Shown in pieces: positions 12,797 to 16,298 of a DNA stretch of 64,000 bases; positions within the stretch are counted from its first letter, which is position 1, and the number at the start of each line of letters is the position of its first letter. The notes below the pieces were generated by a model, which made no database searches, was not told the origin of the DNA, and worked only from the letters and a program-made list of their open reading frames with translations. The position numbers and the translations under genes were made by a program. This DNA comes from a bacterium (lineage in GTDB: Bacteria > Zhuqueibacterota > Zhuqueibacteria > Oceanimicrobiales > Oceanimicrobiaceae), in contig JBHHYI010000001.1 of assembly GCA_046757525.1 (NCBI GenBank), forward strand, positions 106,723 through 170,722, given 5' to 3'.

Positions 12797-13165
12797 ATGA
12801 AAAAATTAGCTATTAAAAAGCTATATTATTCCATTAGCGAAGTCAGCAAAATCACCTCATTAAAGCCGTATGTCCTCAGATATTGGGAAACAGAATTCTC
12901 GGAGTTGAAGCCGTCAAAAAATCGAGCTGGCAACCGAATCTATCGACTCAATGACATTAACCTGATCAATTTGATCAAAAAACTGCTTTATCAAGAAAAA
13001 TACACGATTGAAGGAGCTCGACAAAAGCTCAAATTGCTTAGAGACAATAAGGATGGCCAACTCTATTTGTCGTTTTATGACCACAATCTAAACTCGATGC
13101 TGTCTGAAATAAGGCAAGAGTTGGTAGAAATCCTAAAAATCATCGGCAGTAATAGCGGGGCGTAG
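12797..13165 (+). CDS. MerR-family HTH transcriptional regulator
   Basis: 122 aa. N-terminal helix-turn-helix YSISEVSKITSLKPYVLRYWE. The 3' end overlaps the tRNA by about 10 nt. Confidence 0.65.
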   Translation: MKKLAIKKLYYSISEVSKITSLKPYVLRYWETEFSELKPSKNRAGNRIYRLNDINLINLIKKLLYQEKYTIEGARQKLKLLRDNKDGQLYLSFYDHNLNSMLSEIRQELVEILKIIGSNSGA

Positions 13166-13230
13166 CGCAGTCCGGTTAGCGCACTTGACTGGGGGTCAAG
13201 GGGTCGTAGGTTCAAATCCTATCGCCCCGA
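13156..13230 (+). tRNA. tRNA-Pro (anticodon GGG)
   Basis: Cloverleaf read by hand. Acceptor stem CGGGGCG/CGCCCCG, D-arm GCGC…GCGC, anticodon stem CTTGA/TCAAG with loop CTGGGGG, T-arm GTAGGTTCAAATCCTAT, discriminator A. CCA is not encoded. Confidence 0.85.
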
Positions 13231-13239
13231 CTATTTTTC

Positions 13240-13276
13240 GGAGCCGCACTCCACAGGGTTGCGGCTCTTTTTTTGG
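13240..13276 (+). terminator. Rho-independent terminator after tRNA-Pro
   Basis: GAGCCGCA-(11-nt loop)-TGCGGCTC followed by a T7-T8 run. Confidence 0.8.
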
Positions 13277-13728
13277 GTTTGTCCCACACTAACATCCGTT
13301 AGATTTCGTAAGCTCCGTCTCTCAACAACAAGCCGACCTTTGAATGACCAAGGCGAGAGGAGGGCCTTACCCACGAAAGGGATTCAGAATCCCAGAAACG
13401 AGAAAGGTATGGCAGACGGGGAGGAAAAGGAACAAGGAGGTTTGGCTCTTTTGAGGGTTTCAGCGGTGAAAACGATCTAACGCAAGTGCACCCGGGCGAC
13501 CGTTATGAGATTCTTTTGTGTCGACACGGCAACATCATTGTGATGGACGCTGTGCCCAATATTTGCCCAACTCCTATCCTTCTTCAAGCTACTCACGCCT
13601 TAAGCAACCAAGTTTTGTGCGAAGCTCCTTTAACACCAAGTCAAGAGGAGGCAAGGGATTGACCAGCCGTCCGAGTTCTCTTTCCCAGTATGGTTCCCTC
13701 GACCGTTCCAGAAGCTCTCTTCGGTCTA

Positions 13729-14547
13729 TCAATACAACCACCCATCAGGTATTAGCTTGTAGTTAACCAAAAGACCCCATTTGTCGTTATAGCTTCCGTG
13801 TTTTGGTGATATGGGATCCAGGACGGAGTAGCCCTTCGAGAGTTTCATGCCTTCAAAAATACACCTGTACTTGGGCAGCAGACCGCCTACTTCGAGAATG
13901 TAACCAAGTCTCTTCAATATCGTCATATTGCCCATCTCCATGGCAAAAGTTATTACTGTTTTAAAGTCCATTTCCTCTCGCGAAAAAAAGATCGACCTTG
14001 CAATTTCGTCGATTCCTCCGCAGTGTTCAGGATGGTCAAGGCAGTCGGCTATTGTCTTGTTTTTGTCTGAGATTTTGACTCGTTCACCTTCGACTTCAAT
14101 ATCAACCACGCCAAAGAATTTTTTCTCGGCAAGCTGCACAAAGAGGTAGGTGTTGTGCATAATCTCGATTTTTTTCTTGGCCCTGGTTGTTGCAATGAAT
14201 GTCGTTGTTGGAATCTGATCGGAAAAGCCGTAATGGTTCAGGGCGGACCAGTAGCCAATGTAGTATGGTTCCACAAGCTTTGAGCCGATTACAAAGCTGT
14301 GCATGGCAAAACTTTCTGCACCCTTCACGCCGACGTCAAGGGGGACGATTGCATACAGACCTCTTTTTAACTTGAGAATCCATTTCTTCTTTACAAGGTG
14401 GTGTATAGTCTTGCTGGCAGAATTGCCAACCAGCGCTTTAACATCCTCAGTCGTGAAGGTTATTCTGTTGTCTCTCGCAAAGCTTGAGATGAGAAAGGAT
14501 TCCTTCTTGCTGAGACCCTGCCTATATTTTTCTGTCGTTGTGTCCAT
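13729..14547 (-). CDS. AbiEi-like (type IV toxin-antitoxin antitoxin family) winged-helix protein; orphan, with no adjacent nucleotidyltransferase toxin gene
   Basis: 272 aa. N-terminal region …FTTEDVKALVGNSASKTIHHLVKKKWILKLKRGLYAIVPLD matches the AbiEi_4 pattern (…RGxY motif). AT-richer than its neighbours. The 490 bp downstream on the minus strand holds no ORF. Confidence 0.5.
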   Translation of the reverse strand: MDTTTEKYRQGLSKKESFLISSFARDNRITFTTEDVKALVGNSASKTIHHLVKKKWILKLKRGLYAIVPLDVGVKGAESFAMHSFVIGSKLVEPYYIGYWSALNHYGFSDQIPTTTFIATTRAKKKIEIMHNTYLFVQLAEKKFFGVVDIEVEGERVKISDKNKTIADCLDHPEHCGGIDEIARSIFFSREEMDFKTVITFAMEMGNMTILKRLGYILEVGGLLPKYRCIFEGMKLSKGYSVLDPISPKHGSYNDKWGLLVNYKLIPDGWLY

Positions 14548-14798
14548 ATTTTGTCACTTTCTACAGAATGATATAGTTTTTATGGCCTAATTTAACAATG
14601 TTTCGCAGCATAGTCAATGTGTTTTTCAGAGATGGTAGGACAGACAATCAAGTCCATTCATTTTCGTGACGTACTTCCCAATAACTGTCCAAGTTGAATA
14701 AGCTTCCCGTCGTCGTGGGGCTGTGTTTGCTAATATTCTACTGCTGGCAAGCTGTTGGTCAAGCTGCCGAAAATAAAGAATAAGCAACGTAATTCAAA

Positions 14799-15239
14799 AT
14801 GCCACCTTGTCTCGAAACGTGCATTCAGGGAAACAAAGTGAGTGTTGTTAGCAACCGTCTCATCAAAGTACTCATCGTCGACGACGACCGCATTCTCAGG
14901 CGTCTCATGACCAAGCTGATTCAGGATTCGTGGCCCATCGAGATCATCGAGGCCGAGGATGGCCTGGAAGCGCTGACCATCCTCCTGAAACATCCCCCAC
15001 ATCTCAACGTCATTATCCTGGACCTGATGATGCCCCTTGTCAACGGAATTGAAGTCCTCAAACTCATACGCAGCAGACCCAAGTTCGACCGGGTTCCCAT
15101 CATGGTCTGCACGGTGGTCAACGATGTGCAGCAGATCAAGCAAATCATCAAGCATGGCGTGGATGACTACGTCGTCAAACCAATAGACCGGGTGGTGTTC
15201 CTCAGGAAATTCTTCAGGATTCTGAGAAAGATTCGCTGA
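14799..15239 (+). CDS. Stand-alone CheY-like response-regulator receiver domain protein
   Basis: …IKVLIVDDDRILRRLM…IILDLMMPLVNGIEVL…VKP. The true start is probably a few codons downstream of 14799. Confidence 0.75.
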   Translation: MPPCLETCIQGNKVSVVSNRLIKVLIVDDDRILRRLMTKLIQDSWPIEIIEAEDGLEALTILLKHPPHLNVIILDLMMPLVNGIEVLKLIRSRPKFDRVPIMVCTVVNDVQQIKQIIKHGVDDYVVKPIDRVVFLRKFFRILRKIR

Positions 15240-15497
15240 GCCGGCACCCAACAGTCCCGGTCGTTCGTCACTTTGGAAGAGGTGCCATAGAAAGCGTTTC
15301 CTATTTAGGGAGTGCGTTCCACAGTTCCAGGCGGTGAAACTCGAACCATCTTCCGGGCAGAGATGCGCCAGGGCGTACAAGTCCCATAAAATCAAATTGA
15401 CGGGGCCCTCCATTCTTCTGTTGAAATCTCCCCTCCTGCTACGGCACACCATTTGATTGCCCACCGTGCCAAATCAACACTTAGTTCGTAATGCAAA

Positions 15498-16298
15498 ATG
15501 GCAGCAATTATGGAAGAAAAATATACCATGGAGGGTTTAGAAACCTGTTTTGCAAGATTCAACGCCTCCATTGGTGATCTCCAAAAAGCTTACAACAAAA
15601 TCCAACAGCATCTGCATCACAGCGGGGATAGCCTGTCCCAGGAAACCCTGCTCTACATGTCACAGAACCTGGCGCACGGCATTCGCAATCCCCTTGGCGG
15701 CATTGGTAACCTATTGACTCTGCTTTCTCACGACTACGATCTGCAACAAACGGACAAAGTGCAGAGAATGCACGAGGGGATTGAGCGGATTGAGCGAATC
15801 ATCGCTAAACTCATTGAGTTTAGTTCGCCGGTGGGAACAAAAAAGAGACGCCACGAACTACAAGAGTTGGTTGACGCAGTTGTTCATTCTGTAAAACAGT
15901 CCTTGGATTCAAATCGGTCTGCGATTCAATTGTCTTTGAGAATGTGTAAGCGCGCCTTGCTGTTGGAAGCGGATGTCCCCAAGTTGACGCAGGCCCTGCA
16001 ACACATCGTACAAAACGCATTCGAAGCCATGCCGCACGGGGGCAAAATAAGCATCTGGCTGCGAGAAAGCAAAACGCCCAACTGCGCCGAATTGCTGATT
16101 TCAGATGAAGGCCCTGGAATCAAGGTGGATGAAATAGAGAGGTGCTTTGCACCATTTTACACCACGAAAGTCAATGGCATGGGGCTTGGTCTCCCTTTTG
16201 CCAGAAAGGTTTTTGAGAAGCACGGTGGAACCATGCTCTTAGAGAATAGAAAGCCAACCGGACTGAAAGTTAGAATCAAATTGCCAACTAAAAACTGA
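15498..16298 (+). CDS. Cytoplasmic sensor histidine kinase (HisKA + HATPase_c, no TM segments); FlgS/FleS/FlrB-like
   Basis: H-box HGIRNPLGGI. N and G boxes (…LISDEGPGI…, GMGLGLPFARKV). No hydrophobic helices. Sits directly upstream of a sigma-54 activator and flgB. Confidence 0.8.
   Translation: MAAIMEEKYTMEGLETCFARFNASIGDLQKAYNKIQQHLHHSGDSLSQETLLYMSQNLAHGIRNPLGGIGNLLTLLSHDYDLQQTDKVQRMHEGIERIERIIAKLIEFSSPVGTKKRRHELQELVDAVVHSVKQSLDSNRSAIQLSLRMCKRALLLEADVPKLTQALQHIVQNAFEAMPHGGKISIWLRESKTPNCAELLISDEGPGIKVDEIERCFAPFYTTKVNGMGLGLPFARKVFEKHGGTMLLENRKPTGLKVRIKLPTKN

What the first reader, a model, noticed from the sequence alone, without database searches (positions are those of the whole stretch)
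13156..14798. tRNA-Pro-adjacent AT-richer stretch with an orphan AbiEi-like gene and about 490 bp of non-coding DNA
Directly after tRNA-Pro(GGG) and its terminator comes a 490-bp stretch with no credible ORF on either strand. Then, convergent with the tRNA, there is a 272-aa protein whose N-terminus matches the AbiEi winged-helix pattern (…KRGLYAIVPLD). AbiEi antitoxins normally sit directly upstream of an AbiEii/AbiGii-type nucleotidyltransferase toxin, and none is present. This could be a remnant of an integrated element at a tRNA hotspot with a decayed toxin gene. The protein could also be a solo AbiEi-type regulator repurposed as a transcription factor.
Basis: partly seen in the sequence, partly recalled or inferred. 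Interest (0 to 1): 0.6.

Follow-up and report, generated by a model that had tools for sequence, protein, structure and literature searches.

The report
Decayed AbiE toxin-antitoxin module beside tRNA-Pro
This is the wreck of an ordinary AbiE phage-defence toxin–antitoxin pair: the antitoxin gene is intact, but a clean 630-base deletion has removed the whole working core of the toxin gene and left a 50-codon stub, a common fate for such modules.

Summary
tRNA-Pro(GGG) lies at 13156-13231 (+). A convergent, intact 272-aa gene at 13729-14547 (-) is a genuine AbiEi: both Pfam AbiEi domains score above their cut-offs, and PADLOC AbiEi matches at 2.3e-74 over the full length.

The "490 bp of non-coding DNA" is not all empty. 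A 50-codon ORF (13589-13741, -) overlaps the abiEi stop by 13 nt, as real abiEii genes do. It is the first 16 codons of abiEii fused in frame to the last ~34. About 210 codons are missing, and they include all four AbiEii motifs. A separate assembly of the same locus carries the same deletion.

In 58 of 66 related loci an intact abiEii follows abiEi. In the rest the toxin is frameshifted, truncated, deleted or replaced.

Two distant relatives keep the gene order up to MerR and tRNA-Pro(GGG), lack abiE, and differ downstream. The module therefore looks acquired at a variable tRNA-flanking site. However, there is no integrase and no att repeat, and the GC shift is small (44% against 49%).

313 bp (13276-13588) remain unexplained.

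Verdict: an ordinary decayed type IV TA/Abi module with an orphan antitoxin. Interest is low.

The parts
13156..13231 (+). tRNA-Pro (anticodon GGG). It is the last element of a gene order shared with distant relatives.
   Evidence: ARAGORN. Rfam RF00005, 65.6 bits. The order PNPase-M16 peptidase-(AlaDH)-deacetylase-MerR-tRNA-Pro(GGG) is also found in L005 and L006.
13242..13275 (+). Intrinsic-terminator-like hairpin after the tRNA: 8-bp GC-rich stem, 11-nt loop, T7 run.
   Evidence: Read directly from the sequence. The T-run length differs by one base in L004.
13276..13588 (.). 313 bp of unassigned non-coding DNA between the tRNA terminator and the toxin remnant. GC 0.50, like the host.
   Evidence: No Pfam or PADLOC match in any of six frames. 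No Rfam match. Folding no better than shuffles: z +0.38 and +1.66. No similarity to any fetched locus, the rest of the window, or plasmids.
13589..13741 (-). abiEii remnant: a 50-codon ORF starting at GTG and overlapping the abiEi stop by 13 nt.
- Codons 1-16 (13694-13741) are the AbiEii N-terminus, VVVLIDRRELLERSRE.
- Codons 17-50 (13592-13693) are the AbiEii C-terminus, PYWERELGRLVNPLPPLDLVLKELRTKLG...
- The deletion junction lies between 13694 and 13693. About 630 nt (210 codons) are missing.
- A further 1-nt deletion near 13608-13610 shifts the last 5 codons. The ancestral stop TGA is at 13593-13595.
   Evidence: tblastn of three intact AbiEii proteins: C-terminal part E 2e-13 to 7e-11, N-terminal part E 1e-4 to 5e-4. 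Against the whole window, C-terminal part 7e-9. blastn to L001: 60/67 nt (E 6e-22) and 78/102 nt (E 5e-17), mapping to L001 segment positions 16-82 and 712-813. The motifs FKGGTAL, RLSEDLDF, EEIFAEKLRAL and SRDYYD start at residues 45, 61, 160 and 176 of L003 AbiEii, so all lie in the deleted part. L004 has the same deletion and one extra base near 13608, giving ...KLGLLKA*.
13729..14547 (-). abiEi, an intact 272-aa AbiEi-family antitoxin and transcriptional regulator. Winged helix at about residues 22-68; AbiEi C-terminal domain at about 84-219.
   Evidence: Pfam AbiEi_4 2.8e-9 and AbiEi_1 4.7e-7, both above their gathering scores. PADLOC AbiEi PDLC02267 2.3e-74 over residues 12-263. 664 homologues, mostly exactly 272 aa. 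It shares all 57 invariant columns of a 40-sequence alignment. dN/dS against L001 is 0.11. It has no differences from the L004 assembly.
14548..14627 (-). abiEi leader and promoter. The -35 TTGACT is at 14612-14617 and the TG-extended -10 TAAATT at 14589-14594, 17 nt apart. The family-conserved TATATCATTCTGTAGAAAGTGAC lies just 5' of the ATG. The right-hand end of similarity to L001 is about 14627.
   Evidence: Promoter scan. Alignment of upstream regions from 13 loci. blastn to L001: 86% over 81 nt, ending 80 nt upstream of the ATG.
14628..14798 (.). Remainder of the divergent intergenic region up to the response-regulator gene (14799-15239, +). No similarity to other abiE loci. It contains a second minus-strand promoter-like site (14735-14762).
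   Evidence: Response_reg match for 14799-15239, E 7e-25.

Best explanation
The locus is a decayed AbiE (AbiEi/AbiEii) type IV toxin-antitoxin and abortive-infection module.

Shown:
- abiEi is intact and keeps its promoter.
- The toxin gene that follows it in relatives has lost codons ~17-226 in one in-frame deletion. That is the whole nucleotidyltransferase core with motifs I-IV. A 50-codon stub remains, starting at the usual overlapping GTG.

Inferred from what is established for AbiE in Streptococcus agalactiae and Lactococcus (my knowledge of Dy et al. 2014 and Hampton et al. 2018, not re-read here):
- In the ancestral module, AbiEi repressed the operon through its N-terminal winged helix and neutralised the GTP-specific nucleotidyltransferase AbiEii through its C-terminal domain.
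- Without the catalytic core there is no toxin. The locus can no longer abort phage infection or enforce its own retention.
- AbiEi now at most represses its own promoter.
- Toxin-first loss is the only order of decay that does not kill the cell. This is why an orphan antitoxin is the expected intermediate.

Further inference:
- The module was most likely acquired horizontally into the variable region 3' of tRNA-Pro(GGG).
- The deletion is probably recent, because the strongly conserved columns of the stub are almost all still intact.
For: 1. AbiEi identity: (both Pfam domains above cut-off; PADLOC 2.3e-74, full length).
2. Partner expected: the closest relatives (82%, 71% and 69% identity) each have a PF08843 AbiEii gene of 256-260 aa overlapping the abiEi stop by 4-17 nt. 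58 of 66 family loci with enough downstream DNA have a full-length, single-piece abiEii.
3. Remnant: the stub starts 13 nt before the abiEi stop, as in L003. Its two halves match the two ends of AbiEii and nothing in between. All four AbiEii motifs fall in the gap.
4. Real, not an assembly quirk: an independent Logan assembly (L004) has the identical junction.
5. Relaxed constraint on the stub: a 1-nt indel near its end separates the window from L004. All 5 differences between the two assemblies lie in non-coding or remnant DNA, and none in abiEi, the response-regulator gene or the kinase gene.
6. Acquisition:
- L005 and L006 share the left flank up to tRNA-Pro(GGG), lack abiE and differ downstream.
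- abiEi is the only sizeable minus-strand gene in a long plus-strand run.
- Its GC is at the 5th percentile.
- Sources name members of the family in Calditrichaeota, Micrarchaeota, Deltaproteobacteria and Ca. Sumerlaeota at 55-73% identity.
- Some relatives sit next to integrases.
- Others lie 80-130 bp from tRNA genes.
Against: - No integrase, no direct repeat of the tRNA 3' end and no other mobile-element gene in the window. An integrated element is therefore not demonstrated, and the compositional shift is small.
- No ancestral allele with an intact toxin at this same site was found, so the deletion is inferred from paralogous loci in other genomes.
- No operator-like inverted repeat was found in the promoter.
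- The 313 bp between the stub and the tRNA terminator are unexplained.
- Expression of abiEi or of the stub was not and cannot be tested here.
- L004 may derive from the same sample as the window. If so, it is not a fully independent witness.
Confidence: 0.88

Rival explanations
1. Exaptation. After losing its toxin, the solo AbiEi is kept by selection. It might be a transcription factor acting on the divergently transcribed response-regulator, kinase, NtrC-like and flagellar genes that start 251 bp away. Or it might be an "anti-addiction" factor that neutralises AbiEii toxins arriving on other elements.
For: - abiEi is full length, keeps every invariant family residue and both domains, and has a good promoter.
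- It shows no differences between the two assemblies, while nearby non-coding DNA shows three.
- It shares a 251-bp intergenic region with the regulatory operon.
Against: - The stub still keeps nearly all strongly conserved columns, so the deletion looks recent. An intact abiEi then needs no selection to explain it.
- dN/dS of 0.11 against L001 mostly measures time spent as a paired antitoxin.
- Zero differences in 819 nt against a 99.8% identical sequence is not informative.
- No other abiEii in the window.
- No sign that other lineages keep a solo copy for long. Other decayed loci look like independent, different lesions.
Confidence: 0.08
2. Assembly or binning artefact. The genome really carries an intact abiEii, and the 630-nt gap is a mis-join.
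For: The source is a metagenome-assembled genome. L004 could come from the same reads.
Against: - Two assemblies made separately give the identical junction while differing at five other positions.
- Relatives have no long repeat at the two breakpoints that would cause a collapse. Only 2-3 nt (AA or GAA) are shared there.
- The junction is in frame and sits inside a continuous contig.
Confidence: 0.02
3. Old resident gene. abiEi and the stub are ancient, vertically inherited parts of this chromosome, not a recent acquisition at a tRNA hotspot. The closeness to the tRNA is coincidence.
For: - No integrase and no att repeats.
- The GC shift is small.
- The only comparable genomes are distant (PNPase 64-69% identical), so the missing abiE there says little about timing.
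Against: - The closest abiEi (82%, L001) sits in an unrelated context next to tRNA-Arg.
- Five other loci have the module 80-130 bp from a tRNA.
- The gene runs opposite to all its neighbours.
- Gene order ends exactly at the tRNA.
Confidence: 0.1

Closest known systems
AbiE (AbiEi/AbiEii) type IV toxin-antitoxin and abortive-infection system of Lactococcus lactis pNP40 and Streptococcus agalactiae (Dy et al. 2014; Hampton et al. 2018; from my own knowledge, not re-read here)
   Same: AbiEi with an N-terminal AbiEi_4 winged helix and an AbiEi C-terminal domain. In relatives, a two-gene operon with the toxin start overlapping the antitoxin stop, and a PF08843 nucleotidyltransferase toxin.
   Different: - The toxin core is deleted here, so the defining second component is missing.
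- The AbiEi is a 272-aa subfamily that scores far below the NCBIfam TAA_AbiEi equivalog cut-off (25.6 against 150 bits).
- It has no sequence-level match to any solved structure.
- No operator inverted repeats were recognised.
Orphan antitoxins left by toxin-first decay of TA modules, such as the orphan AbiEi-type antitoxins reported in Mycoplasma mycoides subsp. capri (PMC8562856)
   Same: An antitoxin gene retained without a working cognate toxin, in a variable region. That paper also notes tRNA-bordered, island-like TA regions.
   Different: Here the lesion can be read exactly: one 630-nt in-frame deletion joining codon 16 to the last ~34 codons. The toxin is not simply absent.
tRNA-linked genomic islands carrying defence or TA cargo
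   Same: Position directly 3' of a tRNA gene. Gene order breaks there. The gene runs opposite to its neighbours and has slightly lower GC.
   Different: No integrase and no duplicated att site. The total foreign DNA is at most ~1.6 kb.

Membership tests
AbiEi antitoxin family (protein) | N-terminal winged-helix DNA-binding domain (Pfam AbiEi_4, PF13338) | tested here: met
   Residues 22-68, E 2.8e-9, 37.4 bits against a gathering score of 25. This is the only well-modelled part of the AF2 model, pLDDT ~82-87.
AbiEi antitoxin family (protein) | AbiEi C-terminal domain (Pfam AbiEi_1, PF09407), the part needed for antitoxicity in the studied systems | tested here: met
   Residues 84-219, E 4.7e-7, 30.5 bits against 22.2. 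The full-length PADLOC AbiEi model PDLC02267 matches at 2.3e-74 over residues 12-263.
AbiEi antitoxin family (protein) | NCBIfam equivalog NF047376 (TAA_AbiEi), curated cut-off 150 bits | tested here: not met
   25.6 bits, E 8e-6, and only residues 20-132 match. The protein belongs to the broad AbiEi family but not to this particular equivalog group, whose model is 172 positions long.
AbiEi antitoxin family (protein) | Fold like solved AbiEi structures | tested here: inconclusive
   No PDB match by sequence or by profile. The AF2 model is too poor (mean pLDDT 48.7), so no fold search was run.
Complete AbiE type IV TA/Abi system | Adjacent AbiEii nucleotidyltransferase toxin (PF08843) with motifs I-IV | tested here: not met
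   Only a 50-codon fusion of the N- and C-termini remains. Motifs starting at residues 45, 61, 160 and 176 of L003 AbiEii are all deleted. No Pfam or PADLOC AbiEii match in any minus-strand frame. No other abiEii in the window.
Complete AbiE type IV TA/Abi system | Two-gene operon with the toxin start overlapping the antitoxin stop | tested here: met
   The stub's GTG (13739-13741) lies 13 nt before the end of abiEi. L003 has the same overlap (5807 against 5819).
Complete AbiE type IV TA/Abi system | Negative autoregulation through inverted-repeat operators in the promoter | tested here: inconclusive
   A promoter is present and conserved with L001. No inverted repeat of 8 nt or more was found in 14540-14700. 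Binding cannot be tested here.
Complete AbiE type IV TA/Abi system | Toxicity, neutralisation without toxin-antitoxin binding, and phage abortive infection | not testable with these tools
   These need expression and phage assays.
tRNA-integrated genomic island | Integrase or recombinase gene | tested here: not met
   None between the tRNA and the response-regulator gene. Relatives L002 and L153 do have one next to the module.
tRNA-integrated genomic island | Direct repeat of the tRNA 3' end marking the far boundary (att site) | tested here: not met
   The 22-nt and 16-nt 3'-end patterns, with up to 3 mismatches, match only the tRNA itself in 64 kb. No such repeat.
tRNA-integrated genomic island | Gene order breaks at the tRNA and the cargo is absent from relatives | tested here: met
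   L005 and L006 share five or six left-flank genes up to tRNA-Pro(GGG), lack abiE, and each has different genes downstream. Caveat: these relatives are distant.
tRNA-integrated genomic island | Deviant base composition | tested here: inconclusive
   abiEi GC 0.444 against 0.491 +/- 0.032 (5th percentile). The adjacent 13232-13588 has GC 0.499.

The most novel reading that the evidence does not exclude
The orphan AbiEi is not a passive leftover but has been kept for a new job. It could act as chromosomal "immunity" that disarms AbiEii toxins carried by incoming mobile elements. Or it could act as a repressor or DNA-bending factor in the 251-bp region it shares with the divergent response-regulator, kinase, NtrC-like and flagellar operon. 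The in-frame 50-aa fusion of the AbiEii N- and C-termini might still be translated by coupling and play a part.
Probability: 0.06. Interest if true: 0.55.

Novelty: new member of a known kind. Interest (0 to 1): 0.15.

Why it matters
It matters little beyond annotation. The locus should be recorded as an abiEi gene plus an abiEii pseudogene (internal deletion), not as an "orphan regulator" followed by empty DNA. It should not be counted as a working defence system.

It is a tidy, datable example of toxin-first decay in a type IV TA module. The survey done along the way suggests two general features of this 272-aa AbiEi subfamily, both of which would need a proper census:
- About one locus in eight has lost its toxin, through different lesions.
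- The module often sits within ~100 bp of a tRNA gene.

Tried and rejected
1. Profile scans (Pfam, PADLOC) of all six frames of 13232-13741 found no AbiEii or any other family. The remnant is too short for profiles and was found only by tblastn and blastn with close relatives.
2. Integrated-island hallmarks: no repeat of the tRNA 3' end and no integrase.
3. Structured or known RNA in 13276-13588: no Rfam match, and folding energies are no better than shuffles.
4. Similarity of 13232-13600 to 160 fetched loci, the rest of the window and PLSDB plasmids: none.
5. Operator inverted repeats in the abiEi promoter: none found.
6. Solved-structure relatives by sequence or profile: none.
7. The AlphaFold2 model built from 40 close homologues was poor (pLDDT 48.7). 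I ran no fold search because the matches would be meaningless.
8. The metagenome scan with the single protein found nothing. Repeating it with an alignment worked.
9. IMG/VR viral contigs: no relatives, so there is no evidence that the module is phage-borne.
10. The genome-contig scan did not return the window's own genome or a close relative. The best was 53% identity for the deacetylase, so no empty-site or intact-toxin allele from a near relative could be obtained.
Full report
**What is there**

ARAGORN finds a single tRNA in the window, tRNA-Pro(GGG) at 13156-13231 on the plus strand. Rfam confirms it. An 8-bp GC-rich hairpin with a T7 run follows at 13242-13275 (read).

The only long ORF nearby is 13729-14547 on the minus strand, 272 aa, convergent with the tRNA. 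To the left lie a MerR-family gene whose ORF runs 10 nt into the tRNA, and a polysaccharide deacetylase gene. To the right, transcribed divergently from 14799, come a receiver-domain response regulator, a histidine kinase, an NtrC-like activator and flagellar rod genes. Almost every sizeable gene in the 64-kb window is on the plus strand. The 272-aa gene is a conspicuous exception.

**Identity of the protein**

- Pfam gives AbiEi_4 (residues 22-68, E 2.8e-9) and the AbiEi C-terminal domain AbiEi_1 (residues 84-219, E 4.7e-7). Both are above their gathering scores.
- PADLOC's AbiEi model PDLC02267 matches over residues 12-263 at 2.3e-74.
- The NCBIfam equivalog TAA_AbiEi is matched only weakly: 25.6 bits against a cut-off of 150. 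The protein belongs to the broad AbiEi family but not to that equivalog group.
- The large protein collection holds 664 homologues. The listed best ones are mostly exactly 272 aa and 55-82% identical. Sources name them in Calditrichaeota, Micrarchaeota, Deltaproteobacteria and Ca. Sumerlaeota.
- In a 40-sequence alignment the window protein shares all 57 invariant columns.
- No solved structure is detectable by sequence or profile.
- An AlphaFold2 model was confident only for the winged helix (mean pLDDT 48.7). I did not use it further.

**The missing toxin is a deletion, and its scar is readable**

The three closest relatives whose contigs I fetched have 82%, 71% and 69% identity. In each, a PF08843 AbiEii gene of 256-260 aa follows abiEi and overlaps its stop by 4-17 nt.

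In the window, a 50-codon ORF (13589-13741, minus strand) starts at a GTG 13 nt before the end of abiEi. L003 has the same geometry. tblastn with the three intact toxins shows the following:
- The first 16 codons (VVVLIDRRELLERSRE) are the AbiEii N-terminus (VDVLIDKRELLEKARE in L003).
- The next ~34 codons (PYWERELGRLVNPLPPLDLVLKELRTKLG...) are the AbiEii C-terminus. E is 2e-13 to 7e-11 in the local search, and 7e-9 against the whole window.

At the DNA level the stub matches two separated blocks of a 1,200-nt segment of L001:
- Stub nt 1-67 match segment positions 16-82 (60/67 identical, E 6e-22).
- Stub nt 68-168 match segment positions 712-813 (78/102 identical, E 5e-17).

The missing piece is 630 nt, or 210 codons, relative to L002 and L003. 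The junction lies between window 13694 and 13693 and keeps the reading frame. In the relatives only 2-3 nt (AA or GAA) are shared at the two breakpoints. That would fit illegitimate recombination at microhomology, but this is inference only.

The recognisable AbiEii motifs FKGGTAL, RLSEDLDF, EEIFAEKLRAL and SRDYYD start at residues 45, 61, 160 and 176 of L003 AbiEii. All fall in the deleted part. The stub therefore cannot be a nucleotidyltransferase. Profile scans of the region found nothing because each piece is too short.

**Is the deletion real?**

A 2.7-kb contig from a separate Logan assembly (L004, run SRR29324609) covers 13222-15954 at 99.8% identity and has the identical junction. It differs from the window at five positions: 13268, 13308, ~13608, 15406 and 15420. 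All five lie in non-coding or remnant DNA. None lies in abiEi, the response-regulator gene or the kinase gene.

The difference near 13608 is a 1-nt indel in the stub. L004 reads ...KLGLLKA*, like genuine AbiEii C-termini (...LGFLNA*). The window has lost a base and reads ...KLGCLRRE*. That fits an unconstrained pseudogene, although a homopolymer sequencing error cannot be excluded.

Otherwise the stub keeps nearly all columns that are at least 90% conserved among 58 intact toxins. The one exception is a Ser at a 91%-Ala column. This suggests the deletion is recent.

**How usual is this?**

An alignment-based scan of metagenome contigs returned 80 more loci. Of 66 loci with at least 790 bp downstream of abiEi, 58 have a full-length abiEii in a single piece. 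The other eight, plus two short contigs, show different lesions:
- frameshifts near the N-terminus (L001, L159);
- truncations (L117, L121, L126);
- internal deletions (L085, L090);
- a shortened gene (L135);
- replacement by an ORF that looks like a tyrosine recombinase (my reading of its sequence motifs; no profile search was run) and also clips the AbiEi C-terminus (L153, L155).

Some of these may be assembly errors. Still, the pattern is the familiar toxin-first decay of TA modules. Orphan AbiEi-type antitoxins are already reported, for example in Mycoplasma mycoides subsp. capri (PMC8562856).

**Was it acquired at the tRNA?**

Two MAGs share the order PNPase, M16 peptidase, (alanine dehydrogenase), deacetylase, MerR, tRNA-Pro(GGG) with the window:
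- L005 is labelled Cytophagia, with PNPase 69% identical.
- L006 is candidate division KSB1, with PNPase 64% identical.

Both lack abiE, and all three genomes differ downstream of the tRNA. The tRNA is therefore a break point in gene order.

Other support:
- abiEi GC is 0.444 against 0.491 +/- 0.032 (5th percentile).
- Similarity to L001 runs from the toxin stop to 80 nt upstream of the abiEi start codon and no further. That delimits a module of about 1.04 kb now, and about 1.67 kb before the deletion.
- The family sits 80-130 bp from tRNA-Leu or tRNA-Val genes in L103, L110, L146, L158 and L161, 307 bp from a tRNA in L134, and 625 bp from tRNA-Arg in L001. By my rough estimate, chance would put a tRNA that close in well under 1% of loci.
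- L002 and L153 have integrases beside the module.

Against an integrated element:
- No integrase and no repeat of the tRNA 3' end anywhere in the 64 kb.
- No relatives in IMG/VR or PLSDB.
- The comparison genomes are distant.

I rate "acquired into a variable tRNA-flanking site" as likely but unproven.

**What remains unexplained**

The 313 bp at 13276-13588 have host-like GC (0.50). They have no protein-family match in six frames, no Rfam match, no unusual folding and no similarity to anything fetched.

The abiEi promoter is a TG-extended TTGACT-17-TAAATT at 14589-14617. The 23-nt leader TATATCATTCTGTAGAAAGTGAC is conserved across the family. I found no operator-like inverted repeat.

**Mechanism and verdict**

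- Shown: an intact AbiEi gene with its promoter, an abiEii pseudogene lacking the whole catalytic core, and the same state in a second assembly.
- Inferred from published AbiE biology (my knowledge): the ancestral module was an autoregulated type IV TA/abortive-infection pair. Now there is no toxin, so there is no defence and no addiction. AbiEi at most represses itself.
- Not excluded, but unsupported: a retained role for AbiEi as anti-addiction immunity or as a regulator of the divergent flagellar-regulatory operon.

This is an ordinary, well-understood kind of locus. Interest is low.

Noticed in passing
L103, L110, L146, L158, L161 (also L134, L001): In this AbiEi/AbiEii subfamily the module ends 80-130 bp from a tRNA gene (Leu, Val) in five loci, 307 bp from a tRNA in L134, and 625 bp from tRNA-Arg in L001. 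By my rough estimate this is far more often than chance, and it suggests a general link with tRNA-flanking variable regions.
   Followed up: partly
L001, L085, L090, L117, L121, L126, L135, L159, L153, L155: Independent toxin lesions next to an intact or nearly intact abiEi: frameshifts, truncations, internal deletions and, in L153/L155, replacement by an ORF that looks like a tyrosine recombinase. That is about 1 in 8 loci with enough sequence. Some could be assembly errors.
   Followed up: partly
L001:1531-2313: The closest relative's abiEii was called from an ATG in the wrong frame. The native GTG frame (VVVLIDRRELLEKARERNLNLQIMEKDYVLGWLLF...) breaks at a T-run near 1640. This toxin too is either frameshifted or mis-sequenced.
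   Followed up: partly
window 14548-14570 and the matching positions in L001-L003 and L085-L092: About 23 nt (TATATCATTCTGTAGAAAGTGAC) just 5' of the abiEi start codon are conserved across loci whose upstream DNA otherwise differs. It may be a leader or operator element. Many loci also have a CCTTGACTTT box ~100 nt upstream.
   Followed up: no
window 13276-13588: 313 bp with no ORF, no protein or RNA family match, no notable folding and no similarity to any fetched sequence. GC matches the host.
   Followed up: yes
window 12797-13165 and 13156-13231; L005:8855-9320; L006:8841-9433: A MerR-family gene sits directly upstream of tRNA-Pro(GGG) in all three genomes. In the window its ORF runs 10 nt into the tRNA. 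The MerR gene is the most AT-rich part of the neighbourhood, GC 0.377.
   Followed up: no
window 13222-15954 against L004: The two assemblies differ at five positions (13268, 13308, ~13608, 15406, 15420). All are outside intact coding sequence, and three are single-base length differences in short runs.
   Followed up: yes
window 1-64000: Nearly all sizeable ORFs that do not lie inside a longer ORF on the opposite strand are on the plus strand. After the response regulator, kinase and NtrC-like genes come FlgB and FlgC (by my reading of their translations), followed by a long plus-strand run of ORFs that I did not annotate. abiEi is the main minus-strand exception near the finding.
   Followed up: no
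window 14735-14762 (-): A second, stronger sigma-70-like match (TTGACC-16-TAGAAT, 10 of 12) lies on the minus strand ~190 nt upstream of abiEi. It is outside the region conserved with L001. Its meaning is unknown.
   Followed up: no
L005:9245-10824: The relative L005 has a second proline tRNA (CGG) 1.4 kb after tRNA-Pro(GGG). Between them lie two ORFs that I read by eye as a glycosyltransferase and a DedA-type protein. The window has only the GGG gene.
   Followed up: no
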